This document shows positions 18,065 through 58,999 of a DNA stretch of 64,000 nucleotides, one piece after another. The notes under the pieces were generated by a model. That model did no database searches and had not been told where the DNA came from. It saw only the letters and a list, made by a program, of their open reading frames with translations. The stretch covers positions 186,001 through 250,000 of the forward strand of contig NW_026853905.1 in assembly GCF_026571515.1 (NCBI RefSeq). The letters are read 5' to 3'. Position numbers and translations under genes: made by a program. The stretch is from Ruditapes philippinarum (taxonomy: Eukaryota). The first letter of the stretch is position 1; each line of letters starts with the position of its first letter.

Positions 18065-19313
18065 TTTTTAGCTCGACTATTCGATAAGAATAAGTAGAGC
18101 TATTGCAGTCACCCGAGCGTCGGCGTCGGCGTAACCACTTATGTTAAAGTTTTTGTAATAGTTCAAATATTTTCAAAGTCCATTGACATGTGGCTTTGAA
18201 ACTTTGCACACTTGTTCACCATCATGACCCCAACCTGTAGACAGGAGGAGGTAACTCTATCAAGCATTTTGACAGAATTATGCCCCTTTTTCGACTTAGA
18301 ATTTACGTTAAAGTTTTTGTAATAGTTCAAATATTTTCAAAGTCCATTGACATATGGCTTTGAAACTTTGCACACTTGTTCACCATCATGACCCCAACCT
18401 GTAGACAGGAGGAGGTAACTCTATCAAGCATTTTGACAGAATTATGCCCCTTTTTCGACTTAGAATTTACGTTAAAGTTTTTGTAATAGTTCAAATATTT
18501 TCAAAGTCCATTGACATATGGCTTTGAAACTTTGCACACTTGTTCACCATCATGACCCCAACCTGTAGACAGGAGGAGGTAACTCTATCAAGTATTTTTG
18601 ACAGAATTATGCCCCTTTTTCGACTTAGAATTTACGTTAAAGTTTTTGTAATAGTTCAAATATTTTCAAAGTCCATTGACATATGGCTTTGAAACTTTGC
18701 ACACTTGTTGACCATCATGACCCCAACCTGTAGACAGGAGGAGGTAACTCTATCAAGCATTTTGACAGAATTATGCCCCTTTTTCGACTTAGAATCTACG
18801 TTAAAGTTTTTGTAATAGTTCAAATATTTTCAAAGTCCATAGACATATGGCTTTGAAACTTTGCACACTTGTTCAACATCATGACCCCAACCTGTAGACA
18901 GCAGGAGGTAACTCTATTAAGCATTTTGACAGAATTATGCCCCTTTTTCGACTTAGAATTTACGTTAAAGTTTTTTGTAATAGTTCAAATATTTTCAAAG
19001 TCCATTGACATATGGCTTTGAAACTTTGCACGCTTGTTCAACATCATGACCCCAACCTGTAAACAGGAGGAGGTAACTCTATCAAGCATTTTGACAGAAT
19101 TATGCCCCTTTTTCGACTTAGAATTTACGTTAAAGTTTTTGTAATAGTTCAAATATTTTCAAAGTCCATTGACATATGGCTTTGAAACTTTGCACGCTTG
19201 TTCACCATCATGACCCCAACCTGTAAACAGGAGGAGGTAACTGTATCAGGCATTTTTTTTACTATCAAGCACTAAGAATAGTCGAGCATGCTGTCCTACC
19301 GACAGCTCTTGTT
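18065..19313 (+). mobile_element. HINE/pearl-like non-autonomous Helentron carrying ~6.7 x 164-bp tandem array
   Basis: T-run, subTIR gctcgactattc (18071), (cggcgt)n microsatellite, units starting 18143/18307/18471/18636/18800/18964/19129, 3' subTIR gaatagtcgagc (19276), hairpin gctgtc-ctacc-gacagc, end tcttgtt. Confidence 0.88.
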
Positions 19314-21112
19314 GTGATATGTAAATATATATGTTTGTGTTTTCACAAGTTAAGAATGTGTTCAGGAGTTTACTATGCTGTTTCATATGTAAAAAAGTTC
19401 ATTCATAAAACAAATCACATCTTTTATTATTAAAGTATGAAGAACAAAGATAATCTTGCTTTTGTTTTTAGTTAGTCACCGTATATATATGTGGAGTAAC
19501 AGAGTTGACTGATTCACTGTTCTATTTCTACTAGTCATGGTTTGCTTAGGAAATATATATCAATTTTGAGTGCATTATAATAGGAGCTCAATTGCAGAGG
19601 AATATAATTATGAAGGCAGATATATGCCTGATCACCTGAATGTTTAATTACAAAGCATTTGAACAAAAAAACCCTGCATTATAATACTATTATGTAAGAA
19701 AAATTAGTATCTATTTCCATTTCTTACATGCAAATAAAAAAGATAATTGATAAAAATATGTTGAACTACATTTAGCGTAGTAGAAGTCATTTGGTTTATT
19801 GACGTCATATCCGACATTATATAGCATTTGTTGTTTTTATGCTGTGAAATTACAGTTTAATAATGCACCTCATTACCCTATCTGTTTGACAGGGGAATAG
19901 TGTGAAGCATGTTAGAATATGATTTGAAGAATCATGCATATTTAAGTTATTTAAATAATATTTATTACGTTAAAAAAATTATGTATGTCTTGCAATAATA
20001 CTGATATGAATTGTTGCTGAAAACAGATGTGTTTCCGATATTGTCAGCAGATGTGAAGTTTGTACAAATATGGTAAGACAGAGCTACCTTAAAATGTGCT
20101 TTAAATTATTTTCATCTGCTTACTTGTGCAATGAAGGGCCCCTGAAGCATACCTTCACCAATGAAACTGGCAAGGCACTACATCATATCCACAGTATTAC
20201 TTTATCCCAACAAGCACTGAAGAATGAACTTATACTTTTAGCTGAGCAGGAACATGTTTATATATTCCATTATTCCTTTTCATGTGCCAAAAAGCAATTA
20301 TATTGTGTTGTGAAGTGAAACCCTACTGACAATTATTAACTTAAAATGTCAATTTAATGGGCAAAAAGATTGACCCAATTCTTTTAATGTTAAATGATTG
20401 ACCCAGTTCTGTTAATGTTGGCAGTTATTTTGTTATCCTTTCAAACTAGGGCCACAAATATTTGGGCATTTCTGTTAAATCTCAGATTTTCTCCTTCTGT
20501 TGTATATTTGATTATGAGTATTTCTTGAACAATTTTATCCGAAAAATGACTTAAAAATTTAAAGTGTGATTCTAACAGAGGCAATAGAAGCCACATAAAT
20601 TACAATCATTTATGCTGTTTTCTTCATTTAATTTGAGGAATTCTAAAAAATTAATGTAACAAAATGTACACATATCATATAAACTGGGTATATGTACACT
20701 AACTGCTGTTCTACAGAAATAAGAAACTTCGACGGGAGTGATAGCAACAATAGAATGTTTCTAATTTCTGTAGAACAGCTGCGGATGAATTAACTAACAT
20801 ACTTTGTGTCAAGGTTTATTTGGCCTCATTAATATTCACTTTATTACATCATAACTATTTTAAAGAACGCGGTTTTATGAAGCACTATGAAAAATAGAAG
20901 GCTTCTTTGAACAGAATTTCATATAGTATCAACTTTGTTCTTCTATGAAAATTAACGCACAACATTTTTAGGAAATACAGCATTTTCATTGGATGACAAA
21001 TAAGATGGACACTAAAATATATCTCCAAAAATATTAAAAATTTATAGATGTCTTTTCAGTTTCTATACAAATGAGCTGTCATTGAGGCCAAAGTTTTTAG
21101 CCAAGTAAGCTG

Positions 21113-21355
21113 CCTTTGTGGCTAAGTGGTTGTGTTGCTGATTTCAAATATCACTTGCCCCTCAACACTGTGCCGGGTTTGAATCCTGTCAGGGACTTTG
21201 GCTTCTTTTACATGAGGAGGAAATACAGCTTGCTTAAGGAAGGTTGATGGTTTTTACTCAAATGCCTTCTTCTGCCTGAAATAATGCAGAAAGGGGCACC
21301 TGTGGTCTTCCTCCACCATCAAAGCACAACTTTACAGTGTTGGTGTGACTTTAAA
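21113..21355 (+). mobile_element. tRNA-derived SINE
   Basis: A-box-like gtggctaagtggtt and B-box-like ggtttgaatcc, followed by a body (tgcctgaaataatgca...cacctg...cctccacca) that recurs at ~52350, ~53312 and inverted at ~45650. Confidence 0.7.
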
Positions 21356-22145
21356 TCTATTTAAAACTAACAAGATAGACAAAATAGGAAAGTACAATGC
21401 TTTTGTGCCATAGATTTGTGAGTTTTGATCCTCAATGTTGTACATGTCTTCTGTGCATAATTTTGCAACAGACATCAGGTCTTTTGCCATTGCCAAACTA
21501 CATGTACTGTTTAAAAGGTGATTTAAGTGGGCAAGTTTAAAATGACTTGTAGAAAGAACAAATACTGGTAAGTAAAGTTCAAAGTAAACGTTTGTTGGGA
21601 TTTGACAGAAGTTTTTGCTGGCACTAAAACCAAAATCTTTACAAGTAAAAGGTCATTTCAAGTACAAATACAAATCGAAAGGAAACAAGTAAAATGCAAG
21701 GATTCAAAATTTTCATAAACTTTTATTGCAAAATGCTATTTTAAATTTTTTATAGATACATGTACAATGAATAGGTAACATTCTAGAGCATAAAGTTATA
21801 ATCTTTATCAATGAAATTACAGAATAGAAGAGAACTTAAAAATGCATACACCATATAAAAGTGTTTATTAAACGGAATGTCCAGGTACTGCTGTAAAATA
21901 CACCATACACAACAAGACTTTGTCAAAACAGAATAATCATGTAAGCTCTAACAAAATCTATGAATAAATAAATGTTCAAAAAATAAAATAACAGTGCACA
22001 ATTTTTATCACAGACTTTTCATACAAATAGTAGTTCACATACAATATTGAACAGTAGTTGATTTTGCTTTATAAACACAGTTTTCCCAACATTATCAATG
22101 AATAAAATGTCATATTTTTTTCTATAATATGCCAAAAGTTGATCT

Positions 22146-25100
22146 CTAGTCTACTTGTGGATTTTGTTGGAACAAATACTCAGCCTGAAAAAATAGATAC
22201 AGAAATATATATCGACATGTGTATAAAAGACATAAATAAGAAATAACATTTTTTAAAAGTGTAAAAATAACCTTGAAATCATACTAGCTTGTCAAAAGGC
22301 TTTTCTGACAAAGTAATTTTAAACATTCATTTTTGAACCCCTTTTCAAGTTCAATTAAGGAAAAGATGGATAATCATGTTAGAATGAAATTATATAAACT
22401 CTCTGACAGGAAGATGAAGATACATTTATTTATTAAAGGGACTCCACCTAAGTTTTTTGACATGAAAAGACAGGAATTTTTTTTTCGAAACTTTAACAGT
22501 ATTTGATGTAGGTCTGGATTAATAACTTGTGTGCAAATTTTCAAATTATCCCCTCGATCAGTTTTCCAAGAATAATCACTTTAATTGTGCAAAATGACCA
22601 AGAAATGAAAAATGTTGCTTTTCACTCAAACTTGACTAAAAAATCGTGCAAAAAAAAAAGATTTTTAATTTTACTCTGAATATTTTTCTTTGTAAACGAA
22701 TGCATATTCTTCCATATTAAGTGAAACACTTGCTCTATGCAAGAAATTAAAATTTTATGTTTTTAGGCTTTTTGACCTCAGTGGAGTTTGTTAAAACTGT
22801 ACTTGCTATTACATGTATCTCTAAGAGAAAATGATTAAAATTGAGTAGCTCACAATAAAATGTCTGATTGGGCTAGCTTTATTTGGTTGTTTACAAATAA
22901 TACAGGTTTTACTAGTACTATGAACTTACTAGGAAATCAATGGCGTCATCTGGTCTGGTTTTACAACATTCAATGAGGCCCTGGGTGAGGGTAGGCATCA
23001 CATGTTTCATGAGATAATTCCTCAATGGTATTGACTGGGCCTCCAGCAGTTCATACTCCTCACGTTTTACTTCATTCAATCTTTGTGTCTGTAAAAATAG
23101 TGGGATTAAATGTAAACAACAACAAAACATCATTGGTGAGGACATTAAAAAGATAATTTGAGGTTATCTCTTTGAGTTTCTGTTAATGATATTTCAATTT
23201 ATTTGAATAAAATTACATAAAAGTAGGGTCATATGTGTGCTAAATGAAGTATTTCACTGCTGCCAGTGGTGAAATACTTCATTTAGCACACATATGACCC
23301 TAATTTTTAATTAAGACTTAAATAGCCAGAAAAAAAATAATAACAATATTCTTATTTAAAGTGATACAAAACTCAACAAATTATTTACCCATTCTTCTTG
23401 TCTCTTCTTTCTCTCTTGTGCTTCTTCTAATTCTTTTCTCTCTTTCTCTTGTTTTTGCTCAGCTTCTTTCTTTTGTCTTTCTTCTTCTTCCAGTTTCTTC
23501 ATTTGTTCAAGCTCCTCAGGTGTAGGTCCTGGAAGACAGAAATATTTTAGTTTTAATGATTTACGAATCCTTTTTGGATGAAATATGCCTCTTCAACCAC
23601 CTTTTGAAAGAATATGTGCTTGGTTTGAAGATTACACTTCTTAAGAAGTGAAATACTGACAAAGAAAGACAACCTCTGTGCCTTGATATTTCAAAAATGA
23701 ACTGGCATCAACAAAGAATCATTAAGCTTCAGTATGTGATTGTATTGAAGGTGGAGGTCTGATTATAAACAACTTCCAAAAAATTACTGACAGAGACCTG
23801 AAGTACCACTCAAGTATTTCTAAACACAGATCAATGTCTTGGAGGTGTCAAGATATTCCAAGAAGCCCCAAGGAAAGAACAACTCATTTTTCAAAGTTGG
23901 TAAACAAAGATTTTGTTCATGAAAGAATAAGCCTTGAAGAATTATCATATTGTTTAGCTTCCTAGATTTGTATAGTGATTTGCATGGGTTAAAAAAAATC
24001 ATTTATCTTTATATTTTGGCCTAAAATTACAGGTATTCCATGATGAGAATTAACATTAAAAACAGATTTCTAGCTTAAATATGACAGCAACAACGCCACG
24101 TTGCTTATCAAACTTGTTTTTATAAGGAGTGACATGTAAATATGAATCAATTTTTGGTTTCCTATAAGACACAGCACTTGCAAATATGATTAACTTCTTA
24201 CCATAATTTCTGGCTTTTCCAATGATTTTCTTTATTTTTTCTACTGTATCCTTCATCATATGGGAGCTATCTTTCACAACATCTGAAATAAAACACAAAA
24301 TTATAAACATTTATTCAAAATGCATACAGCCCCGCTGTCTTATAGATTATCAAAATGATTAAGCTTAACATTTTTGTCATTCACATTTAGAAAGTACTGA
24401 AGAAGATGATTTTGATAACAATATATATTACTGTTATTGGTAAAGCAAACATAATTTTCTCAATATCTCTTCTAATTAAGAGATTTGTCCACCAGCTTAA
24501 AATGAAATTCAATTTTCTGTATGCCATTGTATAAAGAATTTTGCTAACTCAAACAAGTGTGAGGGCTTGAATGGTAACTATGTACCATACTTATATGAAA
24601 CATCTGAAAACTAAATGTTTTCTTATCAATATTTGTAATATATAAAATCATTAAAATCAATATATACCAATATCTTCAGGATGTATCTCCAACTCATCAA
24701 AATAATTAAGGACAGTTTCTTCCTCTGTATTAGCGTTCCTGTAAGCCTCGAGTCTCCTCACAAGACCCTCCTCCGTGTTATGAGTGTTGACCACCTCACT
24801 CTCGGGAAGGTTCATCACACGATGTTTCAGAAATTCATCATTAGCTTTAAGACTGATGACGTGGTCAGGCATTATAAGACGGTTATAGTTAGTTGGCTTG
24901 GCTGACTCCTCAGGCTCCTCATCATCCTCAGCTGTAACATAAATAAAAGCATGATATAAAAATAGAAATGTCATATCAAAGTCAAAGTGCGATATCAAAA
25001 AAATAAGTTAATATCAAAACATAATCTGATATCAAATAACAAGATAAAGAGATATGAAAAAAACATAAGACTATACTACACAAGCTTGATAACATAATGT

Positions 25101-28100
25101 AAAGAAATGTTTAAAGCAATAACTTCCGTAAACTTCCCTCAACATTTTATTATAATATGCCTATTGGTACATTCTTGTTAGAATATATACTTTGTTTGGT
25201 AGTAAATCAAAACTACTAGTATTAATTTTTAACCTACATTTTAACAAACATAACTGCAAATTCAATTACTGGTAAAAGAATCAAAGTTATGGTACACAAT
25301 GTTTTTGTTCAATTGTGAATATGAACGAAAAGAATTCTTTAGCAAGTCATAAATACATTGAACAGTAGAATATTCATAAGAATCTTACATGCAAAGAGCT
25401 CTTTTGCTTGTTCCATAGTCTTTGGAAAACCATCCAGGATAAACCCTTGGTTCTGACACGGCATTGATAAAAGTTTGTCTCTGAAAAATTTGAGGACATA
25501 TGTATCCTCTATACGTCCATTGTTATTTTCCTTGCCCTCATTGATTGAGTCGAGAAGTTCTTGAGCATCTTGGGCTTTTCCTTCATCTTCTTCCTGATCT
25601 TCAGAATCAGCACGACGAGATGTGGTTGTCTGAAGGAAGACATATAACTGTACATAAGATAACTGCATTCATTATTATAGAAACAACTTAACACAATGAT
25701 CTAAAATCTGTATTGGTATTATATATTACTTCATGTTTAAGTCATTACTGTTTTGGAAATTGGGGAGAGGTATAAAAAAAAGATTCTTCATACAAAATGC
25801 TGAAAATTCCATTCATGAAGTTTATTACGCTGTACATTCAAATGGACAATGATGTTAACTTCAACTCTGTTATCAATGAAACTAGATATTCTAGTATCTG
25901 AGTAAATATTATCTTTACAACAAATTTAGTATATAATCATACCAAGTCATCTATAGCCTGATCAATGACGTCTTTAATCTTGATGTGATGTAATTTGTAA
26001 TGCTCACACAACTGTTTCACAACTGTTGACTTTCCACTGGCTGGTGGTCCCAATACACACACTCTCAATGGCTGAAATAAATAAACAAAATATGATGTAT
26101 TCTATAACAATGTAGTTTTAATGCCATTTGTCACTCCAATACTGAAGGGACAGATAGAATTTCTATATTTTTTAATATGAAAGAGGGGGTAATTTTAACA
26201 TAGAAGAAATCCCAAGTTATAGAACTTGGCCTGGGAAGAGATCATAATGTGTTTGATACATGTATAAAATTTCATTGTAAGTTTGAGTCACTGGCTTCAA
26301 CTCATAGGTAAATTATATTTTAAGCCATCTGTATAATTATAGTCAAAGTCGTTAATATTGCTTGTTTTAGTATTGTATATATAAGTTGGATTTTTACTTA
26401 GCAAAACCAGACTTATGGCACAGTTAACATATATTAAAGTGAACTGAAACTTCAGACATAAAAAAGAGCATATTTTTATACAGTTTTATGCTTATTACAG
26501 TGTAAACTGACCCAATGATATTCATCAACGGGTTTTAACTAATCAAGGATATTACACAATGAGCATGGCAACTTAATACAATTTGAATAAAATATAGAAA
26601 TATGAAATACATTGTACTTACATGTAGGTTCCTGGTATCTTTGTATTCTTTGATAATAGCTTGTATATTCTCCACCATACCAGCCTCTGACACCCAACTG
26701 ATTCTCATGTTTTCTTTGACATTCACTGCATCCATACGTAGGTTAACCAGTAACATGTCAAAATCATTTTGCTGAAATGTTCATTATAATGAAAAATTAT
26801 CATTTTCCTATGCTATTTTGACGACAAATAAGAAAATTCTTTATGACAACAATATCACTTTGTATGTTGTTTCATTTCATTAGACAAAATTGTAATGCAA
26901 CACAAGCTGGTTCACCATTTAAAGGAAACTACTCACGTTAACAGTACTTTATGTAAAGCTTGCTTCACAGGTGCAAAACAAAAATCAAACCACTTGGTCT
27001 GCTGTTTCAAAATTAAGATAATTATGTTTTGTTGATATTTTTGTGTGTTTTTCTCTTTCTCTCAATTTTTTTTTTTAATTTCTCTGCTGTTTACTAATAT
27101 TAAATTTTTGTCAATACCTCAATTTCCTTATTCAAAAGTGCTTCTTCTTTGGTAATATTCTTCACTTTGTCTGTGCCCAGGCTTCCACTAACACTCTACA
27201 AAACAAGTCAAAAGATATATAACAACTGCAATTAATCATTTTTTTGTACCCATAAAAATTGTAAAGCAGAAAAATGAAAAGATGATGGAACAAAAGATTG
27301 TATTATTTATTTACAAAACATCAAACACATTACAGACGATCATGCTCTAAGATTTAACATGAATAAGTACTTCATTTCATTTCTCTCAAAAAAGCTTTTC
27401 ATATGAGTTTATATATTTATCCTCAATTTTGGAAGAATGAGTATTACAGTTTGTAGAGGATCTATGTATAATGTATGGTAAGTATGGTAAAACTGTTACC
27501 TTGACAATTTCTTCTAGGGTACTGTTTGAGTCATCTTTAGCAATGAGATACCGCACCTTGGGTCGACTGTCAGCAATATTCTGGATCACTCTGTTTATTG
27601 TAAATATGTATATATCATAAACTTTGAAACACATTATATATAATGGTACAAATGTTACAAACTGTAAGTCAAAAACACTGCATAAAAATCCTTAGAAATA
27701 TCAAGTTCAATTTAAAATATTATAAATGTTCAACTTTGCTTTACATGTATATACAAAAAGAATATCACTTACGCAGCTAGATCTTTAATGTGGATTGTGG
27801 GTACAACATTCTGTCCATTTCCAAAGCACAGGAGCTCTGGGGCATTGTGCCAGGCAGACTGAAAATCAAATTGCAAAAAATGGATGGTAAGTTTATAAAT
27901 AAAAGATTCTTGTGTTAAAATGTGTTAAATGTCATCATCAAATGTATATATAGTAAAAAATTCACATTCTACCTATTGAATTACATGTATTTACACTATT
28001 AAATTTTATAAAATCTGATTAATCAATTTTGTTATTTCTTTCTCTGATAATTTTGAGTAACATTTCAACTTTTGTCCAAGCATTGTGGACTTCAGACTTA

Positions 28101-32790: not shown

Positions 32791-32909
32791 ATGATCAGGG
32801 TCAAAGAACGCTCAAACGCTTGAATCATTATGGCTGACAAAAGTTTTCAAAGTTTTAGAAAATGAATTTAAATACGTTTTTTAACATCTGACATTTATTT
32901 TTAACAGAA

Positions 32910-35900: not shown

Positions 35901-36707
35901 TGCAATTAGAGCTTTTATTTTGAATTTGTTTTGTAAACAATTTCTCCGTTGGACATGTTATGATGTCATCGTATCAACATGAAGTCAGTGATAACTAATT
36001 AACTTTTAATAGAATGAATATGGTCAAACCAGTCTAATCTGGTGTCTCTGGATCGGGAAATACTCGCACAAATTTCTATGATAACATAAATTTCTCTAAA
36101 TTATTATGATGTACTGTCAATGAACACCTGTAAAATGTCACGGCCATGTGGACTCAATACAAAAACTGTTACACATTGGTAAAGCAAGCTAATGTTGCAG
36201 AATACCAGTTTAAAACAAAACAAAATTAGCCGCCAACTATTTTGACCTTTGAATGTCACAATATTTGCCTCAAATTTGATAATGATTACTGTTTTATAAA
36301 ACCCAAAATTCTAAAACGCTCTGTTGATAAAATGTTATGATCAGAAAAGCTGTCTCTTTATAACATTAACAATATTAGAAGTAAACAATTTCCTGATTTT
36401 TTTCTTTTTGCAGGCTGGATTAAGAAAATTGGATGTCACATTGTTATATCAGTTGTGGACATTACACGAGGCTATTCAAGAATATAAAGCAGTAATGCAG
36501 GACCAGTATTCGGACATGGGCTCCGAATACTCTTGGGGTGGTCTCAGCAGTAGAGCATGCTCTATTACCAGTATTGATTCATGTGACTTCAACGAGGATT
36601 ATACCTTGCAGTCAAACCCCTCAATCATCAGCTCGTTACAGGGGAGCACTACCAGTCTGATCCAGCAAATAGAAGAGTTGAAAGTCAGGGCCGAAACAGA
36701 ATTTTAA
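32910..36707 (+). CDS. FAM89A: FAM89/LURAP-domain (leucine repeat adapter) protein, 2 coding exons, ~191 aa
   Basis: Exons 32910-33191 and 36414-36707 join in phase 0. N-terminal GLPPLP motif and LNTALRRLKNEM|AGLRKLDVTLLYQLWTLHEAIQEYK are typical of FAM89A/B. The A/B paralog assignment is not meaningful in an invertebrate. Confidence 0.85.
33418..35121. mobile_element. Non-autonomous hAT-like element with 5-bp TSD (hAT5-like) in the FAM89 intron
   Basis: TIR CAGGGCTCATCC / GGATGAGCCCTG. TSD ATGCC at 33413-33417 and 35122-35126. Internal 15-bp tandem atctactattaatta x4 near 34897-34960. Confidence 0.85.
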
Positions 36708-38139: not shown

Positions 38140-39240
38140 TTTTATTAACCAGGTTTTCCGAAGGAAAAAACTGGTTATTAGATTGAGGTATGTCGGCGTG
38201 CGGGAGGACGGGCGGGCGTAAACAATTTCTTCTGTGCTCAACTCCTCCTACATTTCTCTACAGATTTTGACCAAACTTTCACAGAACCTTTGTCATCAAG
38301 TGCCCTGGCGCATATTGTCCGGGTTTTGTGATTGGATAATATTTGACCTAGTTATGGCCCTTTGTTTTTTTCCTTATACAGAATATATAGTGAACTATTT
38401 CTTCTGTATGCAACTCCTCCTACATTTCTCAACGTATTTTGACCAAACTTTCACAGAACTTTTGTCATCAAGTGCCCTGGCCCATATTGTCGGGGTTTTG
38501 TGATTGGATAATGTTTGACCTAATTATGGCCCTTTGTTTTTTTTTCCTGATATAGAATATATATTGAACAATTTCTTCTGTGCGCAAATCCTACATTTCT
38601 CAACGGATTTTAACCAAACTTTCACAGAAGGTTTGTCATTAAGTGCCCTGGGGCATATAGTCAAGGTTTTGTGATTGTATAATATTTGACCTAATTATGG
38701 CCCTTTGTTTTTGTTTCCTTATACAGAATATATAGTGAACAATTCATTTGTGCTCAACTCCTCCTACATTTCTCCACAGATTTTGACCAAACTTTCACAG
38801 AAGCTTTGTTACCAAGTGACCTGGCGCATATTGTCGGGGTTTTGTGATTAGATAATATTTGACCTAATTATGACCCTTTGTTTTTTTTCCTTACACAGAA
38901 TATATAGTGAACAATTTCTTCTGTACGCAACTCCTCCTACATTTCTTAACGGATTTTGTTCAAACTTTCACAGAAGCTTTGTCATCAAGTGCCCTGGCGT
39001 GTATTGTCGGGGTTTTGTGATTGGATAATTTTTGACCTTATTATGGCCCTTTGTTTTTTTTTCCTTATACAGAATATATAGTGAATTCTTCTTCTGTGTG
39101 CAATTCCTCCTACATTATTCATGATTTACATTGCACATAGTTACAATTTGTTGCTTGTATTTGTATTTCAACTACAACATATTTATCTACAATGGTGATA
39201 ATAGAAAACCTGGTTTCATGGCATTGCCATGTTTCTTGTT
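38140..39240 (+). mobile_element. HINE-like element with ~5 x 172-bp tandem array
   Basis: subTIR aaccaggttttc / gaaaacctggtt, 5' stem-loop, (ggcg)n, units containing caaactttcacag and ttatggccctttg, 3' hairpin catggca-t-tgccatg, end tcttgtt. Confidence 0.88.
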
Positions 39241-40074
39241 GTGAATTTATATAAACAGGTGTTGTTAATTCAGACAAACATTTGTTGTCAATTCATATAA
39301 ACGTTTATGAAACTTGATAAGAAAAGATAATGTATGGCATGCTTCAGAACATTTTTCTGAACCTGTTTAATAAATTTTTACATGAATTAACAACAAATGC
39401 CTTGTCATATAAATGATAAATCTAACAGGAGATAAAACTGTTTTGCACCAAGCATAGTTTTTTTTGTCTTCCAGACATTTTCATTTGTTTTATTGAATCA
39501 TAAGTTATGATACTTGTTTTAATGCTAATGATTTCAATTTTTTTGATAAAACTTGAACATTTTGTGTGTTATGACTTTTATTTTCAGTTTTACTGTATTT
39601 TTAAAGCATATTTTGTTAAATGCATTTATTTCTCTAATCCCAGAAGCATTTAAAATGTATATCTTATTTGCTAGATATTTAATGGATTTTCAGCAATATC
39701 ATATCATCTTGGTGTTGAAAATAATATGCAATAACATGAGGTAGAAGTATGGATCAAGACTAGGGTACATATAATCTGACTGATTCTGTACTGTTGAATG
39801 TAGATTTAATATTGAGATCCCTTACAATAACAAATGGACATTTACAAACTCACAGCTAGACAAGTTAATGTAACAGCCTAACAGGTTAGACAAGATCAAG
39901 GGTTAATGAGTTATTTGGAGTTTGTTGAATTAATAGGTTTTGACAGGCACAAATCAGTGCTTCCACTACTTACAAGGTAATTGCAACATACAAATGTACA
40001 TTTAAATGAGCATTTATTGTTGAAGATTGGTGCTATGGTTGTCAGATGCTATGTATTGTATTGTATGCATGTCA

Positions 40075-40337
40075 TTAGCTCAACTATTCAAAGAATTGTG
40101 AGGGGTCTTATTCTCTTGTTGGCATCAACAACATGCTTTGGTTAAGATTTTGCATGCAAGTTGGTATCTCCAAAACTAATGAAGGAATGGGCTGAAACTT
40201 CACACACTTTTGCTATTTGAAAAGTAAATATTTTACATGATGGACACAGGTCTCTTGAGTTACCTTTTTACAGAGTTATGCCTCTTTTCTTACTGTCAAG
40301 CACTGAGAATAGTCAAGCACTCTGTCATCTCATGTTT
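40075..40337 (+). mobile_element. Degenerate single-unit HINE related to 18065-19313
   Basis: agctcaactattc ... tgaaacttcacacactt ... agagttatgcctc ... tcaagcactgagaatagtcaagc. Confidence 0.6.
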
Positions 40338-41331: not shown

Positions 41332-42776
41332 TTTTTTGTGCCCCCACATTAGTGGCGGGCATTTAGATTTACCCTTGTCCGTCCGTCCTTCCGTCCGTCC
41401 GTCTGTCCGTCCGTCCTTCCGTCCGTCCGTCCGTTCACTTTTGTGTCGCACGTAACTCAAAAAGTATTTGGCCTATAGTCATGAAACTTTACAGGAATGT
41501 TGATCAGCATGTGTAGTTGTGCACCTGGGTATTTTGGTCTGGATATTTTTAGTATTTTCAGAGTTATTGCCCTTGACTTAGTAAAATTTGGCAATTTTCA
41601 ACTTGTGTCGCATGTAACTCCAAAAGTATTTGACCTAGAGTCATGAAACTTTACAGGAATGTTGATCAGCATGTGTAGTTGTGCACCTGGGTATTTTCGT
41701 CTGGATATTTTTAGTATTTTCAGAGTTATTGCCCTTGACTTAGTAAATTTGGCAATTTTCAACTTGTGTCGCATGTAACACCAAAAGTATTTGACCTACA
41801 GTCATGAAACTTTACAGGAATGTTGATCAGCATGTGTAGTTGTGCACCTAGATATTTTGTCTAGATATTTTTAGTATTTTCAGAGTTATTGCCCTTGACT
41901 TAGTAAAATTTTGCAATTTTCAACTTGTGTCGCATGTAACTCAAAAAGTATTTGACCTAGAGTCATGAAACTTTACAGGAATGTTGATCAGCATGTGTAG
42001 TTGTGCACCTGGGTATTTTCGTCTGGATATTTTTAGTATTTTCAGAGTTATTGCCCTTGAGTTAGTAAAATTTTGCAATTTTCAACTTGTGTCGCATGTA
42101 ACTCAAAAAGTATTTGACCTAGAGTCATGAAACTTTACAGGAATGTTGATCAGCATGTGTAGTTGTGCACCTGGGTATTTTCGTGTGCATATTTTTAGTA
42201 TTTTTAGAGTTATTGCCCTTGACTTAGTAAAATTTTGCAATTTTTAACTTGTGTCGCACATAACTCAAAAAGTATTTGACCTAGAGTCATGAAACTTTAC
42301 AGGAATGTTGATCAGCATGTGCAGTTGTGCACCTGGGTATTTTTCGTCTGGATATTTTTAGTATTTTCAGAGTTATTGCCCTTGACTTAGTAAAATTTTG
42401 CAATTTTCAACATGTGTCGCACATAACTCAAAAAGTATTTGACGTAGAGTCATGTAACTTTACAGGAATATTGATCAGCATGTGCAGTTGTGCACCAGGT
42501 ATTTTCGTCTGGATTTATTTAGTATTTTTAGAGTTATTGCCCTTCACGTAGAAAATTTTTGCAATTTTCAACTTGTGTCGCAAGTTTCTCAAAAAGGATT
42601 TGACATAGTCAATAAACCTTATAGGCAGGTTGCTCAGCATATTTTAGATTTGCACCTGGGGTTTGGCTTGTGGATTTATCCAGTATTTGTAGAGTTATTT
42701 CCCTTGACTTAGTAAAAAGATTGACAGAACAGTGTCGCGGTGGGGGCACCCGTGTCCTATGGACACATTTCTAGTT
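41332..42776 (+). mobile_element. HINE/pearl-like element with 8 x ~162-bp tandem array
   Basis: subTIR gtgcccccac / gtgggggcac, (gtcc)n microsatellite, units starting ~41441/41603/41764/41925/42087/42249/42412/42573, 3' hairpin gtgtcc-tat-ggacac, end tctagtt. Confidence 0.9.
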
Positions 42777-45649
42777 TGTTGTTGTTTTTTTTAATAAAAT
42801 AGATAGACTGAAGATACCTAAGCTCAATTGACAAAGAAATGTAGTTTTGTATTGAGACTAACTTAAAAATTGATACCTTAATTTTTTTACAGTGCCATTA
42901 TTCTGTTAAAGTTATGAATGTTTATCTTTCTCTTCAGTGAATGTAAGTGCGACTTTCCTGAAATTTACTTATTGCCAATGTTTTTATGATACTGTTACCA
43001 TTAAAGTCTATAGTTATATAGAAAAAAAAAAGAAATTGTATTTAAGAAAGAAAAGGTGTATGCCTCTTTGAAGGATTAGACAATTGAATGAAGGGGACAG
43101 GGTGATATTGTAAAGACTGTAATATTCGGTCTTGAAACTGTCATCAGTTATAACAGGGTACAATCATATATCTATTTAAAACACATATCTATAATATTAT
43201 ATAGTATTTTATGATCTGATGTAATGTGAATGATCTTGAAATAGAGTATTTATTGCATAATTGTGTTTAGTTAACATATCTAAAGTGTTTTACAAACTTA
43301 TATTATACATAACTGGATACAACGAAAGACTTTCTGCAGTCTGGCTGCACATTTTTCTCACCCTGTGATGTTAATTGCCCGATATATATTAGCATTTTGG
43401 TTTTGAAATCCCTTAAAATAACATTTTGTTTACAAATTAATGTGTTTGTGTTTATTAGGAAGATAAACAATTCTAAACTTTGGCTGGTTCAAATTCAGTA
43501 TCACAAATTAACTCTTCTGATACGACATAGTTATTAAGTTTTAAGTACAAAAGTATAGGATAAGAGAGTAACACTGTTAGTAATTGTACTAAATAGTAAT
43601 TTTTTAATCACACTTTTTTACGGATTGAGAATTTGTTAGTATTTTTAAGGCTTTTTTTAACAACTTTGGCCAAAATTTTCTTTATGTTATCTGTTGTAGA
43701 TGTTGTGTTGTATACAGCTCGACTAGGTTAATTCTATACATGTCTTTTACACAGACTATTTTCTTCCGTTTTGTGGATGAATTATGTGTTGGTGATTAGT
43801 TTATACTTATTTTATAAAGCTTGTTTCTGAAGAAAATATATTTTAGCTCAAGAGTAATAATATAGATACTATATATATTATGTTCTTATTTAGTATAATT
43901 ATTTATCAAAAGCTTTAATGATTAGTGGAACTAATTTTTTCAGGCGTAGACTTATTATTCTGGTTGTAAATAGGTGCTCCGCAACATGGAGTAATTTACC
44001 CACTCCTTGTTTAGTAAAAACCAGTGCATTTATGAACAAGAAATTGAGATTAATTTGCATTATTACCTCATTAGGGTATGATCAACGAAATTTCAGAATT
44101 TATGTTAAGTTTTTGTCTTTAAATTATTAAATCCCCAGAAATCAAACTTGGCATAAAGAATCAAAACTATTTTTTATGTATTTTATACTTGCATAAAGCT
44201 GTGGGATACAAAATATGATTTTATTTTAAAGAGGGTTTTAATGTTTGTAATTGTGAATTTAATATGAAATGTAAAAACTGTATACCGATCAGCCCTTAAA
44301 CTACTACATTGGAAAGTAATTTGCCTTTGCCACCAGTGCAGAGTTAGACCAGTCTGCATGCCCTTGCAGTCTGACTATGCTTGACAAACTTTAAATTTTT
44401 TCATCATGATATCCATGAAATGGACAGTTCAAAGAATGGAACCTAGACATGCCTATTTAAGAAATTCAGCAGGTTAAGGGTTAAGCAGTAAAAAGTTAAG
44501 CAGTAAAAAAACACTAGAAATGATAATTAGTCCTATGGCACCAATCTTTGTAGTCTGAGCAAATTCTAGACTGTAAGCTGATGAGACTTTTTATATTCTT
44601 ATTTTAATTAGCTATGGGCATTAGTTCAAAGCACAGAAACACAAATCATCTGACATGCAGGTGTTTTCAATCCTCTTGTTGAATAATGGAGCTGAAGTTT
44701 TTTTCTACTGGTTCTATACTGGGACCAATGCATATTCTAACTTAAGTTTTTAATAAGTTTTTGTCAACACTAAATACTTTTACAAAATCATATTACAAGG
44801 GCCCAGAATTAGGCAACACCTAAGGTTCTTCATAGGGTTTGGATTAAATAAAATAGGTTTGCATTGAATTGTGCAACAGCCACATGTGCAACCAAATTTC
44901 ATTACTAACAAATTAAATGTAAACAACAATAAATTGCAATGTGGATGACATGCATGTATATCATTTAATACTAAAGGTAAAACACACAAAAAACTCCTTC
45001 GTGGTTCTTTATATTGATCATGTGACCAGTGTTTGTTTGTTAAGTTTAGCCATTATTTTTTGCTAGAATATCGCAAAGGTGTTATAAGTTATACATAAGC
45101 TATAGAACTGAAAATGAGGGCAAATACAGAATTTTTATTTCTATTATGATTCAGTGGGATTAATATTATGATAAGTATTAAGTACACATTTATACATTAT
45201 TTAAGATACCGGTTATTTGGGATTATTTTAATTTGTATCCATTTATATTGTTGTGTTATAGATAATTTAAGATAATGTGGCTGTCATAATTCATGATGTA
45301 ACATATTATATTATTACTAAGATTAGGTAGTTAAAATAGATTAAAAAAAAAAAGTTTCAAAAACTGATTTATGCAAAAATTGAAATGAATTACCAGTGTA
45401 TACACGTTTAAGTAAAATTAAATAACAGCCACATTGTCTTAAGTGATTAGTAATTGGTGTTAAAGGTTGTGTTCAGTGTTGTATCACTAGTTTAGTGGAC
45501 CATGACAAGTGCCTTATGTATAAACTGTTGTTGTTATTATATTGATATTATTAGATGGTTATTATACTTGAATCTTTGTTATTTTTTTCTTAAATCCTAC
45601 AATCCTATTGAAATGTTATATTGTAATGGTCAGATGGCAAGTTTTGAGT

Positions 45650-51570: not shown

Positions 51571-51607
51571 TAAAAAATGGATAAAAAAAGGTTAATTAAT
51601 ATGTTTC

Positions 51608-52010
51608 ATTTTAACTAGGTTTTCAAAAAAAATCTGGCTTAACTTTATGCAAGATACAAGATTGGTGAAAATTTCTTTGTGTGCATCACCATACATTTCT
51701 CAAGGAATTTCAAAGAACTATTACCATCAATACCTTTGTGCATATTGTAAGAGTTTTGTGTCTTAAACATTTTTGGCAGAATCATAGCCCTCTTGAGTTT
51801 TTTCTCACATAGGCAGTATAGAAGAATATTCTAATGTATGCAACTTATTCTACATTTCCTTAAGGATTTCAAGCAAACTTTCAGAGGACAATGTTACCCA
51901 AAATTTGTCTTTTGTACTATTTGTACATGTATGAAAATATACTCACTTTGCAACTTGATCCTCTCAACATTTCTGAGACGATTTTAAGTTCAACCAAACT
52001 TTTACAGAAC
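51608..52010 (+). mobile_element. Degenerate copy of the 38140 HINE family
   Basis: ttttaactaggttttc start and decayed units (tacatttctcaagga, gcatattgt, caaactttca). Confidence 0.5.
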
Positions 52011-53530: not shown

Positions 53531-53649
53531 TATGTATGACCTAGGCAGTGTTATAAAGGATTTACTTATAGCTGTTTTACAATGCAAAGTATAAATTTCA
53601 GATAAGTTTACTTTAACCTTTTACCCCATGAGCAATAAGATTACTTTAA

Positions 53650-54277
53650 CCCTTTACCCCATGAGCATATTGCGAAAAATGGCCGTTTTCATTGAAAAGC
53701 CTCCTGTAACAAGTTCAAACTGCTATGAAACTATGAAAAATGCTTCAATACTGGTGAAACTTGGCCCAAATGTTGACTACACCATAGCCTGCCTCTGTAA
53801 CAGCATGCTCAATCGTAAATTTCCTGTTACCATGGCAATGGGGGGATGTCTCAAAATTGCCAAAAATCACTATTTTGCATTGTTTTTTTCCATCAAAACT
53901 GATTTCAAAGTGCTTCAATTAACTTCTCAATGAATTGAGATAGAGTAAAAGGCTTTTCAGCGTCGGTTACTAGTTACCCTAAGATCGACCTGAGGCCATT
54001 TTTAGCCTGTCACATGTCCAAAATTTTCTTGGCGATGAGGGGGACTCCGCCCCACTTCAAACCCCCCAAACAGAAGGGGGCTCATCCCCCTTCTGGCAAC
54101 CCCCTGATGTAACATTTGGATGGGGGACGGCGCCGAAAAAGTGGTCACTTTTTTAACAACATTTCTCAAACGAAAACCAGTGTTTGGGGCCTAAATAGGG
54201 CATTTCTTTACTGTTTGAGGCCTAAAAAGGGGGGGGGGGCAAAAAGCCGTCAAAACACGCTTATTTGAGGGAAAAGG
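53650..54277. mobile_element. piggyBac-like non-autonomous element (TTAA-flanked) with duplicated left end
   Basis: TTAA 53646-53649 then ccctttacccc...; right end gagggaaaagg then TTAA 54278-54281. A 33-bp copy of the left junction lies immediately upstream. Confidence 0.6.
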
Positions 54278-55168
54278 TTAATTATTAATGTATGTTTTTT
54301 TAAATATGACTGATTATTCCATTATACCATTTTGAATATTTGACAAAAAACTTTTAAATTTTGCTTCATGTAGGGTGCCATGGTGCCCTTGGGTACTAGT
54401 TACTTATAGAGCATAAATAAATGAAATAGGCTTTCATTAGGCCTTTTTTAACTATGGTAGTCTTTATGTAGACTTTTTCCATCTAGAGTATTTCGTCATA
54501 CCTTTTTCATTTGATTATTTGTTAATGACATATTTATTTTGAATGTTTCATGATTTTTATGAATTTGTTTTGTTTTATTGTGAAAAATATTGTTGCTTGT
54601 TTTGATTACATCATGATCATGAAGTGAATTAGTTTGTTTTTTAAGCTATGAAATTTATATTGAAATTTCTCTCAGAATAAAATAAATCTGGTGTATGATC
54701 AGATAATTTTTGCTTCAGTTATTGTTGTATATTGTGCAGGTGGTTATCTCCCTTATGCTAATATGTTGTACATGCCAAAAATAATTTCATGTTCAAACAA
54801 GACCTGTTGCAAGGGATGGCACATTTGACTTTTTATGCTCCCAAAAGGGAGAGCATATAGTCGCCGCCTTGTCGTACCAATGGGTAACAGTAAATTCTCT
54901 TTGATCCTATTCATTCCATTTTTACTTGTGTGTCTTTTTCTAAGCCTTGTGTGACTAAAAATGGCTAAAAAGATCAAAGGAAAGCCACATAAGTACCATT
55001 TCGTAAGTATGTCCGTCCGTCTGTCCATTGTTGTCTTGTCCGGAGCATAACTTGAAAACCCTTGGAGATAATTTGTTTTAACTTCACACAGTGGCAGAAG
55101 GCATTGAGGTGGAGTGCAGTGACAAAGAACCATAACTCTATTATGCCCCATTTTTGAATTATCTTCCC

Positions 55169-56000
55169 TTTTTAGCTCGACTTTTCTATGAAAAGGGGAG
55201 CTATCCTACTCGCCCCGGCGTCGGCGTCGGCGTCACACCTTGGTTAAGTTTTTCGTACCACCCCACTTTATTTCAGAAGTATTACAAGTATGGCTTTGAA
55301 ACTTACCATACTTGTTCACCATCATAACCTCCATCTACAGACAAGAGTACATAACTCTGTCAAGGTTTTTGACAGAATTATGGCCCTTTTTTGACTTAGA
55401 AAGTGTATTGAGCTTGGTTAAGTTTTTTGTACCACCTCACTTTATTTCAAAACCATTGGAGGTATTGCTTTGAAACTGACCATACTTGTTTACCATCACG
55501 ACCTTCATCAACAGACAAGAGGACATAACTCTGTCAAGGTTTTTGACAGAAATTATGCCCCTTTTTGACTTAGAAAATACATTGAATATGGGTAAAATCC
55601 ACTTATTGCCTTAACCCTTTGAGATATTGCTTTGAAACTTTTAATGCTATTTCACATCATTACCCCCATCTGTACGCAAGAGAAGGTAACTCTGTCAAGG
55701 ATTTGTTTTAAAAATTAAGGCCTTTTATCGACTTAGAATTAAATTTATTTAAGGCTCAACTCAGTTTTTTTTTCTTTCTTACCAGCCCTCTTTTGACTTA
55801 AACATTTCAAAACTTTGCTGCAGTGTTCAAGGGTATCACACCAATTCAGTAAAATAATTTCACTAAAATATTTCTTAATGCTCATGGCCATTGTTCACTT
55901 TAAAAATACAGAGATTCTTGTATTGCCTTTTACTGCAAAAACTTTTTTTATTGGCAAGCAATAAAAAAGTCGAGCGCGCTGTCTTACGGACAGCTCTTGT
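55169..56000 (+). mobile_element. Nested HINE, twin of 29960-30929
   Basis: Interrupts the host unit between ttatcttccc and ataaaaatcttgtcc. Has its own subTIRs gctcgactttt / aaaagtcgagc and 3' hairpin. Confidence 0.88.
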
Positions 56001-56158
56001 ATAAAAATCTTGTCCGTGACATAACTCTAAAACTATCAGAGATATCAACATGAAACTTTGCTACTTTTAAGGTAGACAGGTCACAATGGGTAGATGGGCA
56101 GTGCACAAAAACTTTTAACTCTGCCTTGCCTAATTTTGGAGTAATTGCCCTTTGTTCA

Positions 56159-57075
56159 TTTTTATGCTCCCCGAAAAATTTCGTGGGGAGCATATAGTCG
56201 GCGCCTTATCCGTCTGCCCGTCCGTCCGTCTGTTGTCTTGTCCGGAGCATAACTTGAAAACCCTTGGAGATAATGTGTTGAAACTTCATACAGTGGTAGA
56301 GGGCATTGAGTGGGGGTGCAGTGTCAAAGAATCATAACTCTATTTTGCCCGGTTTTTGAATTATCTCCCCTTATAGAAAAATCTTGTCCGGGGCATAACT
56401 CTAAAACTATAAGAGATATCAACATGAAATTTTGTAGGTGAATAGATCTCAATGGGTAGATGTGCAGTGCATAAGAACAATAACTCTTTTTTATCCTAAT
56501 TTGGAGTTATTGCCCTTTGTTAATTTTAACACTTTGAACTTTGTCCGGAACATAACTCTAAAACTATAAAGAGATATCAAGATGAAACATTGTAGGTAGA
56601 TAGATCTCATTGAGTAGAGGTGCAGTGCAAAAAACCATAATTCTGTTAAGCCTCATTTTGAATTATCTCCCCTTTTAAGAAAAAATCTTGTCCAGGAACA
56701 TAGCTGTAAAACTATAAGAGATATCAACATGAAACTTTGTAGGTAGATATATCTCAATGGGTAGATGTGCAGTGCACAAGAATCATAACTCTGCCATGCC
56801 TAATTCTGGAGTTATTGCCCTTTGTTTATTTTTACTTTTTGAAGTTGTCGGGGACATAACTCAGAAATCATAAGAGATATCATCAAGAAACTTTGTAGGT
56901 TGATAGATCACATTGATTAGAAGTGCAGTGCAAAGGCCAGTAACTCTGCCTTGAATAAAATTTTGGAATTATTGAACTTTTTCCAGGGACATAACTCTGA
57001 AACTACAAGAGGTGTACTTTCCTGTGTCCAAAACCTATTCGGGGAGCATCACCTGGCTCAAACCGGGCTCTTGTT
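56159..57075 (+). mobile_element. Nested family-A HINE inside a family-A host
   Basis: Starts tttttatgctccccgaaaaatttcgtggggagcat, ends ggggagcatcacctggctcaaaccgggctcttgtt. Interrupts the host unit between ttgccctttgttca and atactttgaactttgtcc. Confidence 0.85.
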
Positions 57076-58999
57076 ATACTTTGAACTTTGTCCGGAACAT
57101 AACTCTAAGATTATAAAAGATATCAAAATGAAACTTTGTAGGTAGGTAGATCTCATTGGGTAGAAATGCAGTGCAAAAGAACCATAACTCTGTTTTGCCC
57201 CATTTTTGCATTATCTCCCCTTTCAGAAAAATCTTGTCCGGGACATTACTCTTAAACTGTAAGAGAATATCACCATGAAACTTTGCTACTTAGGTAGATA
57301 GGTGTCAATTGGTAGATGTGAAGTGCAAAAAACCATAACTCTGTTCATCTCCATTTTTGAATTACCTCCCCTTTTAGAAAAATCTTGTCCAGGACATTAT
57401 ATTAAAACTATCAGAGATATCAACATGAAACTTTATAGGTGGATAGATCTCAATAGGTAGATGTGCAGTGCACAAGAACCGTAACTCTGCCTTGCCTAAG
57501 TTATTGCCCTTTGTTTAGTTTTACACCTCGAACTTTGTCCGGGACTTAATTCAAAATTATAAGATATATCAACATGAAACTTTGTAGGTAGATAGATCTC
57601 AATAGGTAGATGTGCAGTGCACAAGAACCGTAACTCTGCCTTGCCTAAGTTATTGCCCTTTGTTTAGTTTTACACCTCTAACTTTGTCCGGGACTTAATT
57701 CAAAATTATAAGAGATATCAACATGAAACTTTGTAGGTAGATAGATCTTATTGGGTAGAAGTGCTGTGCAAAAGAACCATAACTCTGCTCTATCCCGTTT
57801 TTGAATTATCTCTCCTTTTAGAAAAAAACTTGTCAGGGACATAACTCTAAAACTATAAGAGATATCAACATGAAACTTTGTAGGAAGATAGATCTCATTT
57901 GGTAGATGTGCAGTGCACAAGAACAGCAACTCTGCCTTGCCTAACTTTGGACTTACTGCCCTTTGGTAATTTTTACATTTTGAACTTTGTCGGAGACTTA
58001 ACTCTGAAACCATAAACGGTATCAATAAGAAACTTTGTAGGTAGATAGATCTCATTGATTAGAAGTCCAGTGCAAAGAACAGTAACTCTGCCTTACCTAA
58101 TTTTGGAATTATTGCACTTTGAACGCTGTCCAGAGATATAACTTAACTACAAGAGGTGTACTTTCCTGTGTCCAAAACCTATTAGGGGAGCATCAGCCGG
58201 TTCAAACCGGGCTTTTGTTTATACTGGCTAGTAAATAACTCTTAACCAGGAAAATAATTTTATCATGAACATATTGTTTAAATAATATTAGTGGAAAATT
58301 TAAAGTGTCTGAACTGTATTGTACATCTGTGACATAGCATGAATGTTATTATTAAAAAATATATATTAATAATTATTGTATAACATTATTATTTATTGTA
58401 TTACAAACCTTCCATTATAGATTTATTCACTTCAAACTCAATACTGCAGAAACAGAGCTTAGCACAGCTGAGCTTGATATGCATGAAATATCATTATGAA
58501 ATAGCTGACAGAAAATCTATAGAGTATACTTAGCATAGTTTAGCGTGATAAAACTTAACATAATCACTGACAGAAAATTCAAAACAAAATCATAATTGGC
58601 ATTTAAATTATCATTTAATATTAATAACAGACAATGTCAAAAAATAATGAAAGAAATCAAGTAAAGGATTGATTGTCAGCTTTGCTTTTAAAGCTTGCAT
58701 TACCAAGTGAAATGGAATGTAACAGTTTTCTTAAAAAAATCCACTACTGACAATTGTTGTTCCAAAAATTAAACAAACTGATGTACATTTTAAATGTACC
58801 TGGAGCTATAATTATCACATTTCATATTTTCTTTAACCCTTCATTCTGCTGTCATGTCGTTATGTCATGTTTTAATTGTATTGAATTTATCATATATACT
58901 AGTCATTTGCATGTGCAATCAATTTTTAGACTGCTACAGGGTGAAAATAAGTTATATTGTTTAAGAATGAGTCTTTAGTTAGCACATTGTTTTATGACA

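What the first reader, a model, noticed from the sequence alone, without database searches (positions are those of the whole stretch)
18065..58219. At least five families of satellite-carrying HINE/pearl-like elements share one architecture and a nucleosome-sized unit
Seen: elements at 18065, 29960/55169, 38140, 41332 and 54830/56159 mostly have different subTIR sequences but the same order of parts: T-run, 5' subTIR with a partner IR forming a stem-loop, GC-rich microsatellite (cggcgt, ggcg or gtcc), tandem array, 3' subTIR, 6-7 bp hairpin, TCT(T/A)GTT-like end, and no TSD. Units are ~150-172 bp and, despite divergence, all keep two boxes, (g/c)aaactt and ttat(t/g)gccc(c)tt. Established: this layout matches DINE-1/HINE non-autonomous Helentrons and bivalve pearl/BIV160-type satellites. 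Inference: conserved boxes and unit length across families point to a shared binding protein or nucleosome-phasing constraint, i.e. a mobile satellite-seeding system. These elements cover roughly 8 kb of this gene-dense window.
Basis: partly seen in the sequence, partly recalled or inferred. Interest (0 to 1): 0.7.

Follow-up and report, generated by a model that had tools for sequence, protein, structure and literature searches.

The report
Clam Helentron satellites share fixed-register module
These are clam versions of a known kind of satellite-carrying jumping DNA, but the same repeats also sit at the front of full-length, enzyme-coding transposons and keep short sequence boxes at fixed distances across very divergent families, so they are likely a protein-docking module of the transposon rather than captured junk.

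Summary
In detail: seven elements with five unit types cover 8.2 kb. They are HINEs (non-autonomous Helentrons) in a venerid-like clam. The layout, the 140-180 bp units, two conserved blocks and the nucleosome/protein idea are already published for oyster Cg_HINE, pearl, DTC84 and BIV160/Cg170.

Two things go further. (1) Of 30 Rep loci fetched, 10 full-length Helentrons have matched termini around microsatellite + array + Rep-helicase ORF. Two carry the exact 12-bp subTIRs of window families A and C; the oyster study found no partner. (2) Twenty non-redundant unit families align without gaps on one scaffold (-30 TAACT, -20 A, -8 A, box A). Box B sits 80-81 bp after box A in 13 of 13 representatives that have it; unit length (139-174 bp) varies elsewhere.

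The units are homologues, not convergent. Box B is not universal, and nucleosome phasing has only weak support. Best reading: a host-protein docking module native to Helentrons. Function is untested. The scan noted this module before on other DNA of this genome (e1-9924666).

The parts
18065..19313 (+). HINE family A: T-run, subTIR GCTCGACTATTC with IR, (GGCGTC)n, 6.8 x 164-bp units (18139-19256), 3' subTIR 19276-19287, hairpin 19290-19306, TCTTGTT
   Evidence: 25 of 41 listed matches cover most of the 131-base 5' query; same 12-bp subTIR as the full-length Helentron on G000:C3192
29960..30929 (-). HINE family B, young copy: four ordered, diverged units (161-175 bp) and an A+T-rich 3' spacer
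   Evidence: 99.65% identical to the 55169 copy over 572 bp and 100% over the last 108 bp; 40 of 40 scored 5' ends 100% identical
38140..39240 (+). HINE family C: subTIR AACCAGGTTTTC, (GGCG)n, 5.2 x 171-173-bp units
   Evidence: same subTIR as the full-length Helentron on G000:C3781, which carries a different 145-bp unit; 11 of 12 bases match oyster Cg_HINE_5
41332..42777 (+). HINE family D: subTIR GTGCCCCCAC, (GTCC)14, 7.9 x 162-bp units, TCTAGTT end
54830..58220 (+). HINE family E host element: 146-158-bp units, interrupted by two nested HINEs; 132-bp spacer at 54875-55006 before the microsatellite
55169..56000 (+). HINE family B copy nested in the T-run of box B of the first E unit; internal-deletion variant
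   Evidence: the host unit resumes on the far side with no duplication
56159..57075 (+). HINE family E copy nested in a T-run about 8 bp after box B of a host E unit
18168..18288 (+). Example of the fixed-register module in the first A unit: -30 position, -8 A, box A GAAACTT at 18198, box B TTATGCCCCTT at 18278
40073..40330 (+).
51610..51890 (+). Decayed family-C-like element, 67-74% identity to C units
3593..3893 (-). Remnant units of the 165-bp family F, which resembles oyster Cg170 by eye

Best explanation
The seven elements are non-autonomous Helentrons (HINEs) whose satellite arrays are the same kind of array that full-length, Rep-helicase-coding Helentrons of this genome carry behind their 5' end, and each unit is likely a docking module for host DNA-binding protein(s) that would help the element mobilise in cis. 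Shown: the HINE anatomy; insertion into T-runs without duplication; the array inside full-length Helentrons, 1.1-5.9 kb before the ORF and on the same strand; one gap-free scaffold shared by 20 unit families. Inferred: HINEs arise by internal deletion and are moved by Rep-helicase through the subTIRs and 3' hairpin. Termini and units are swapped as modules. The scaffold is kept by selection on the transposon. Untested: which protein binds, and whether it acts on nicking/replication or on transcription.
For: Ten of 30 Rep loci have matched termini around microsatellite + 4-11 units + ORF, with no antisense units; 9 of these 10 have no second subTIR between array and ORF. They fall in six lineages: 34-48% identity between five of them, 68% for the closest pair. 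The C3192 element encodes OTU, DUF6570, Rep, PIF1 and endonuclease domains with the Helentron motif EFQxRGSPHxH and has family A's 12-bp subTIR. Scaffold: -8 A, +1 A, +3 A, +5 T and +6 T are invariant in 20 of 20 families; 21 columns outside box A are at least 65% conserved against 0.6 in shuffles, while other columns are near saturation (0.31 against 0.27). Box A to box B is 80-82 bp in 30 of 44 pairs in 774 kb of unselected DNA, while box B to box A is spread over 72-90 bp. All 33 terminus pairs found (some nested or sharing a 3' end) hold at least one unit. Motif columns are more conserved within families in 2 of 8 tests at p<0.001 and 1 at p=0.048. Oyster CgiSat08 keeps the -30/-27/-26/-20/-15/-8 positions and box A, counted by eye.
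Against: There are no binding, chromatin or transposition data. Five of 8 within-family tests are not significant, and box B columns are less conserved than other columns within families E, F2 and D in the ungapped test. Three of 31 window units break the 79-82 bp spacing (74, 74, 85). One intact 2016-aa Helentron (C14040) has no such array within 10 kb, and about 10 other Rep loci, mostly broken, show none. The 5'-end caller needed a microsatellite, which biases towards this layout. The first unit lies only 130-310 bp from the 5' end, so HINEs could keep it by position alone. No autonomous partner was found for families D or E, and the A and C partners carry different units from the window's HINEs. 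Scaffold anchoring on box A is partly circular, and one family with a 2-bp slip was dropped before counting.
Confidence: 0.55

Rival explanations
1. The units are promoter/enhancer monomers for the transposase gene only (like the 5' monomers of mouse L1, recalled) and ride along passively in HINEs.
For: The arrays always lie upstream of the ORF on its strand. One contig of a guessed-RNA run shows a GT-AG intron between array and ORF in the C3192 type, so a transcript starts within about 700 bp of the array or further upstream. RGGTCA direct repeats, nuclear-receptor-like by recall, sit at +68 to +76 in 8 of 25 families.
Against: It is one contig at depth 8. Raw RNA reads show no start site, and coverage of the region is near zero. 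Every HINE sampled keeps units although it has no ORF.
Confidence: 0.2
2. One reading: each unit positions a nucleosome, and boxes A and B, 80-81 bp apart, lie side by side on adjacent DNA gyres for a gyre-spanning factor.
For: The spacing is 80-81 bp in 13 of 13 box-B families. About 80 bp is the gyre-spanning distance shown for T-box factors (10.1101/240598, passages). The rigid block is about 135 bp plus a variable 4-39 bp. WW and SS power at 10-11 bp has p=0.02.
Against: 139-147 bp units leave no linker. AA/TT/TA periodicity is not significant (p=0.21), and the strongest SS period is about 24 bp. Twelve of 25 families lack box B. An oyster repeat (CgiSat10) has the two boxes 84 bp apart, counted by eye.
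Confidence: 0.15
3. Neutral descent or capture: one old repeat was picked up, copied and homogenised, and the boxes are only what survives.
For: There is residual identity outside the boxes (35% against 26%). Capture of tandem repeats by Helitrons is the view in PMC7492417 and PMC12628747.
Against: Near-saturated substitution with no net length change over about 110 bp; invariant single bases in 20 families; persistence across Rep lineages 34-48% identical and in oyster.
Confidence: 0.08
4. Box B is kept because it is the preferred insertion target of these elements.
For: Both nested insertions in the window, and one full-length Helentron (C4213), sit at or just after box B. 4 of 76 unbiased insertions lie within 25 bp of box B against about 0.8 expected (p about 0.01, one match doubtful).
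Against: Only 1 of 76 lies directly at box B (p about 0.1). The 5 of 8 signal came from a query that included the CCC flank.
Confidence: 0.02

Closest known systems
Cg_HINE_1-13 of Crassostrea gigas (PMC7492417; text parts 1-4 of 7 and supplementary file 1 read)
   Same: 5' subTIR + IR + microsatellite, 140-180 bp central repeats in fixed orientation, 3' subTIR + palindrome, TT targets, no TSD, 11 families, termini/unit swapping, two conserved segments shared by some clusters. The terminus types match: C to Cg_HINE_5, A/B to _7, D/E to _8 (by eye).
   Different: The paper calls most families unrelated and of independent origin, and could not relate any of 10 autonomous Helentrons to them (though its Table S4 shows a 98.7% match of the CL6 left flank to Helitron-27_CGi). 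It reports no fixed-register scaffold.
HINE / DINE-1 and Helentrons (PMC4067079; passages)
   Same: subTIRs, 3' palindrome, T-rich target, HINEs as deletion derivatives, Rep motif 2 with S between G and P, family defined by 11 or more identical subTIR bases.
   Different: The passages seen do not describe satellite arrays as a regular part of autonomous elements.
pearl (CvA/CvE/CvG), DTC84, BIV160/Cg170 (PMC3879986 Discussion and passages; PMC5139131 and PMC8268682 passages and supplement hits; Gaffney 2003 and Plohl 2010 not seen)
   Same: About 160-bp core repeats with one or two blocks of reduced variability; protein-binding and nucleosome-length hypotheses already stated. The genome's family F resembles Cg170 and shares the oyster Box 1 terminus (by eye).
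   Different: The five window units are not the Cg170 type itself. No direct alignment to BIV160, CvA or DTC84 could be run.
Heli2Xen of Xenopus laevis (PMC12001565; passages)
   Same: An autonomous Helitron2 bounded by 166-bp minisatellite arrays that also fill its non-autonomous copies.
   Different: One autonomous copy with arrays at both ends; no cross-family scaffold in the passages seen. Here six lineages carry 5' arrays.
Caenorhabditis Helitron internal repeats (PMC6927752, search listing only; 10.64898/2026.08.08.743475, abstract only)
   Same: Helitron-borne sequences act as host factor sites (HSF-1) or as chromatin-shaping periodic DNA.
   Different: Canonical Helitrons with different repeats; no shared sequence was tested.

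Membership tests
HINE (non-autonomous Helentron) | Subterminal inverted repeats near both ends | tested here: met
   10-12 bp 5'/3' subTIR pairs in families A-E
HINE (non-autonomous Helentron) | 5' IR forming a stem-loop with the subTIR; microsatellite | tested here: met
   7 of 7 fold at -6.3 to -10.6 kcal/mol; microsatellites seen
HINE (non-autonomous Helentron) | 3' palindrome/hairpin close to the end | tested here: met
   5-7 bp stems in 6 of 7; the 56159 copy has a mismatched stem
HINE (non-autonomous Helentron) | Insertion into TT/T-rich sites without target duplication | tested here: met
   Two nested insertions compared with intact host units; T on both sides of all 29 family-B loci whose 3' end was found, of 30. 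No allelic empty site was seen in other samples.
HINE (non-autonomous Helentron) | No coding capacity; interspersed multi-copy | tested here: met
   Only short frames up to 150 aa overlap the elements (these were not scanned against Pfam); 40 or more dispersed matches per family
HINE (non-autonomous Helentron) | Autonomous Helentron partner sharing 11 or more subTIR bases | tested here: met
   Met for A (12/12) and B (11/12) with C3192, and for C (12/12) with C3781. Not found for D or E among 30 of 94 Rep hits.
Helentron (autonomous partners) | Rep motif 2 with RGSPH, PIF1 helicase, C-terminal endonuclease in one ORF | tested here: met
   Motif in 9 of the 10 longest-ORF loci; full domain string checked for C3192 only
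HINE (non-autonomous Helentron) | Rolling-circle mobilisation by the partner | not testable with these tools
   Inferred from structure and from identical young copies
BIV160/Cg170/CvA satellite family | Whole-monomer similarity and its two conserved blocks | tested here: inconclusive
   Only a by-eye comparison with Cg170 in a supplement: family F matches, families A-E share only the box A scaffold.
Nucleosome-positioning satellite | 10-bp A/T periodicity and phased nucleosomes | tested here: inconclusive
   WW p=0.02, AA/TT/TA p=0.21; no chromatin data

The most novel reading that the evidence does not exclude
Bivalve 140-180 bp satellites (pearl, Cg_HINE, Cg170/BIV160 types) are one ancient superfamily of Helentron control monomers. 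Each unit is a nucleosome-core-sized rigid block whose boxes dock a host factor, one gyre apart in the box-B class, and which the transposon needs to move. The famous 'nucleosomal' length and long persistence of these satellites would then be a transposon adaptation, with HINEs seeding host-factor arrays over about 6% of the genome.
Probability: 0.25. Interest if true: 0.75.

Novelty: new member of a known kind. Interest (0 to 1): 0.45.

Why it matters
The elements themselves are ordinary for bivalves. What matters is that two open points become testable. The oyster study left the autonomous partner of array-carrying HINEs unresolved; here intact partners with the same subTIRs, and with arrays of their own, are in hand. 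The conserved blocks of bivalve satellites have been put down to unknown protein binding without experiment; a base-level, fixed-register scaffold shared by 20 families says which bases and spacings to mutate. Units cover about 6% of 774 kb of unselected DNA, so a bound host factor would have very many sites.

Tried and rejected
Box B as insertion target: suggested, where the query included flank bases; an unbiased retest was not significant at the site itself (1 of 76).

Convergent origin of the boxes in unrelated families: rejected by residual identity.

Coding role of units: unit lengths are not multiples of three as a rule.

Transcription start at the array: RNA reads pile up on the unit on both strands from many related copies and no start site is called. 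No listed holder was on record as RNA.

Allelic empty site for the 29960 copy: none seen; flank coverage was patchy.

Autonomous partners for D and E: none among 30 of 94 Rep hits.

Direct alignment with BIV160, CvA, DTC84 and Cg_HINE monomers: not run. The monomers are figures or lie in files not readable here (PMC11136912 supplement unreadable; PMC7492417 spreadsheet not opened). These may bear on the novelty claim.

Rows dropped before scaffold counts: 7 of 29 clusters (3 ORF-internal repeats, 2 unrelated repeats, 1 hybrid, 1 E-like duplicate), then 1 for a 2-bp slip and 4 as redundant.

Look-up of earlier findings by sequence gave nothing.
Full report
Setting. The window is G000:C2392:186001-250000 in a 1.41-Gb assembly, 32% G+C. 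A riboflavin-transporter gene at 59003-61250 is 83% identical to its closest named homologue, from Mercenaria mercenaria, and 64% to Mya and Dreissena. The host is therefore likely a venerid-like clam.

Observation. Self-BLAST and TRF find the arrays, and reading the sequence confirms the order T-run, subTIR, IR, microsatellite, array, 3' subTIR, hairpin, TCT(T/A)GTT-like end. The elements cover 8,155 bp. Elements 55169 (family B) and 56159 (family E) are nested in units of the 54830 element; on removing them the host unit resumes with no duplicated target. Each family is dispersed: all five 5'-end searches returned 40 or more matches from 86-2,031 candidates. Family B is young: 40 of 40 scored 5' ends are identical, and copies differ by internal deletions of an ordered array. 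A and B are sister subfamilies.

What is already known. PMC7492417 (parts 1-4 of 7 and supplementary file 1) describes 11 oyster families with exactly this layout, 140-180 bp monomers, TT targets, no TSD and two conserved segments shared among some clusters. Its Table S2 subTIRs and microsatellites match the window's terminus types by eye: C to Cg_HINE_5, A/B to _7, D/E to _8. PMC3879986 (Discussion) and PMC8268682 (passages) already state the protein-binding and nucleosome-length hypotheses. PMC5139131 (passages) notes two conserved motifs in BIV160/Cg170. So the finding as written is a known system in another bivalve.

Autonomous partners. A Pfam PF14214 search gave 94 matches, many in open frames of 1,900-2,640 aa. 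I fetched up to 20 kb around 30 of them. Ten have a 5' subTIR, microsatellite and 4-11 units, then the ORF 1.1-5.9 kb after the last unit, then the matching 3' subTIR; none has antisense units, and 9 of 10 have no second subTIR before the ORF. Four more have the 5' module but no 3' end was found. Against this: one intact ORF (C14040) and about ten mostly broken loci show no such array, two are cut by contig ends, three have complete HINEs inserted upstream, and the 5'-end caller needed a microsatellite. The ten fall in six lineages, 34-48% identical in the Rep-helicase core apart from one pair at 68%. The C3192 element (2,397 aa; OTU, DUF6570, Rep, PIF1, endonuclease) has family A's 12-bp subTIR, the same microsatellite and a box A/box B unit. 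The C3781 element has family C's subTIR with an unrelated-looking 145-bp unit. Termini and units are swapped across families. The oyster paper could not relate any autonomous element to its HINEs and discussed capture of repeats, as a 2025 review still does (PMC12628747, passages). One precedent exists: a Xenopus Helitron2 bounded by 166-bp arrays (PMC12001565, passages).

The unit scaffold. In the window, box A to box B is 79-82 bp in 28 of 31 units while box B to the next box A is 65-94 bp. In 774 kb of unselected DNA, 30 of 44 pairs are at 80-82 bp. From 1.8 Mb of loci, 172 arrays of 135-182 bp fall into 29 clusters, and the strand relative to the microsatellite agrees wherever it could be compared. 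A profile from the five window families alone finds 11 of 20 other representatives at z above 3.5. After refinement, 20 non-redundant families align without gaps. Positions -8 A, +1 A, +3 A, +5 T and +6 T are invariant; 21 columns outside box A reach 65% against 0.6 in shuffles; other columns are at 0.31 against 0.27 expected. Thirteen of 25 representatives have box B, all at +80 or +81; eight others have RGGTCA at +68 to +76, mostly as direct repeats (nuclear-receptor likeness is recalled). Inter-box identity among ten box-B families is 35% against 26% shuffled, so the units are homologues. Within families, motif columns beat other A/T columns clearly in 2 of 8 tests and marginally in 1. By eye, oyster CgiSat08 keeps the scaffold, Cg170 resembles family F, and CgiSat10 has both boxes 84 bp apart.

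Mechanism. Shown: anatomy, T-run insertion, arrays inside autonomous elements, fixed register. From established Helentron biology (PMC4067079, passages): HINEs are deletion derivatives moved by the Rep-helicase. Inferred: saturation without net indels across such distant lineages means selection on spacing, and constancy across different subTIRs and Reps points to a host reader. All 33 terminus pairs sampled keep at least one unit, which favours a need in cis over a promoter-only role, though position next to the 5' end could explain it. A single spliced contig between array and ORF keeps the promoter reading alive. The 80-81 bp spacing equals the gyre-spanning distance reported for T-box factors (10.1101/240598, passages), but periodicity is weak and 139-147 bp units leave no linker, so nucleosome phasing stays a minority reading. 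Box B as a target site was tested and not supported.

Novelty. The elements are new members of a known kind. Seven searches listed no paper that describes a fixed-register scaffold across bivalve HINE units or autonomous bivalve Helentrons carrying the arrays. The library lacks most subscription journals and Repbase, where Helitron-27_CGi may already show the link. PMC11136912 and PMC8905726 (passages) added nothing on this. I reached the autonomous link and the fixed spacing before looking at the scan's notes; note e1-9924666 reports the same module from another piece of this genome and is not independent support.

Verdict. Observation confirmed; interpretation partly supported; interest 0.45.

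Noticed in passing
window 54875-55006: A 132-bp spacer splits the 5' region of the host E element. About 70% similar spacers occur at the same place in two other HINE families (L126, L214).
   Followed up: partly
L103:1995-, 147-bp array: A hybrid unit: first half from the 168-bp F5 family, second half from family D, joined at or just after box A. This suggests recombination at the box.
   Followed up: no
L214-L215 (G000:C4213): An 11-kb full-length Helentron is inserted exactly in box B of a 167-bp HINE array; its 3' end is followed at once by another HINE of the host family.
   Followed up: partly
L006/L028 (G000:C1657:438222): A family B copy inserted into box B of its own family's first unit.
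   Followed up: yes
L208-L227, N-terminal part of the Rep ORFs: Most Helentron ORFs carry in-frame coding tandem repeats (63, 69, 93, 114, 177 bp) before the Rep domain.
   Followed up: no
window 4799-5393: A 30-bp minisatellite, 19 copies, open in one frame on each strand (201 and 176 aa), with no Pfam match for the + frame.
   Followed up: no
window 8595-8722 and 9423-9548: A 129-bp inverted repeat (90%) about 700 bp apart, next to the CCDC97-like ORF.
   Followed up: no
window 7789-8592, 24660-25668, 59003-61250, 11436-11711, 36315-36704: Host gene pieces: CCDC97-like, adenylate-kinase domain exons and SLC52 riboflavin transporter (all on -), with weak DUF1899 and LURAP hits on +.
   Followed up: partly
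L224:5513-5915: A GT-AG intron in the region between array and ORF of the C3192 Helentron, seen in one contig of a guessed-RNA run.
   Followed up: partly
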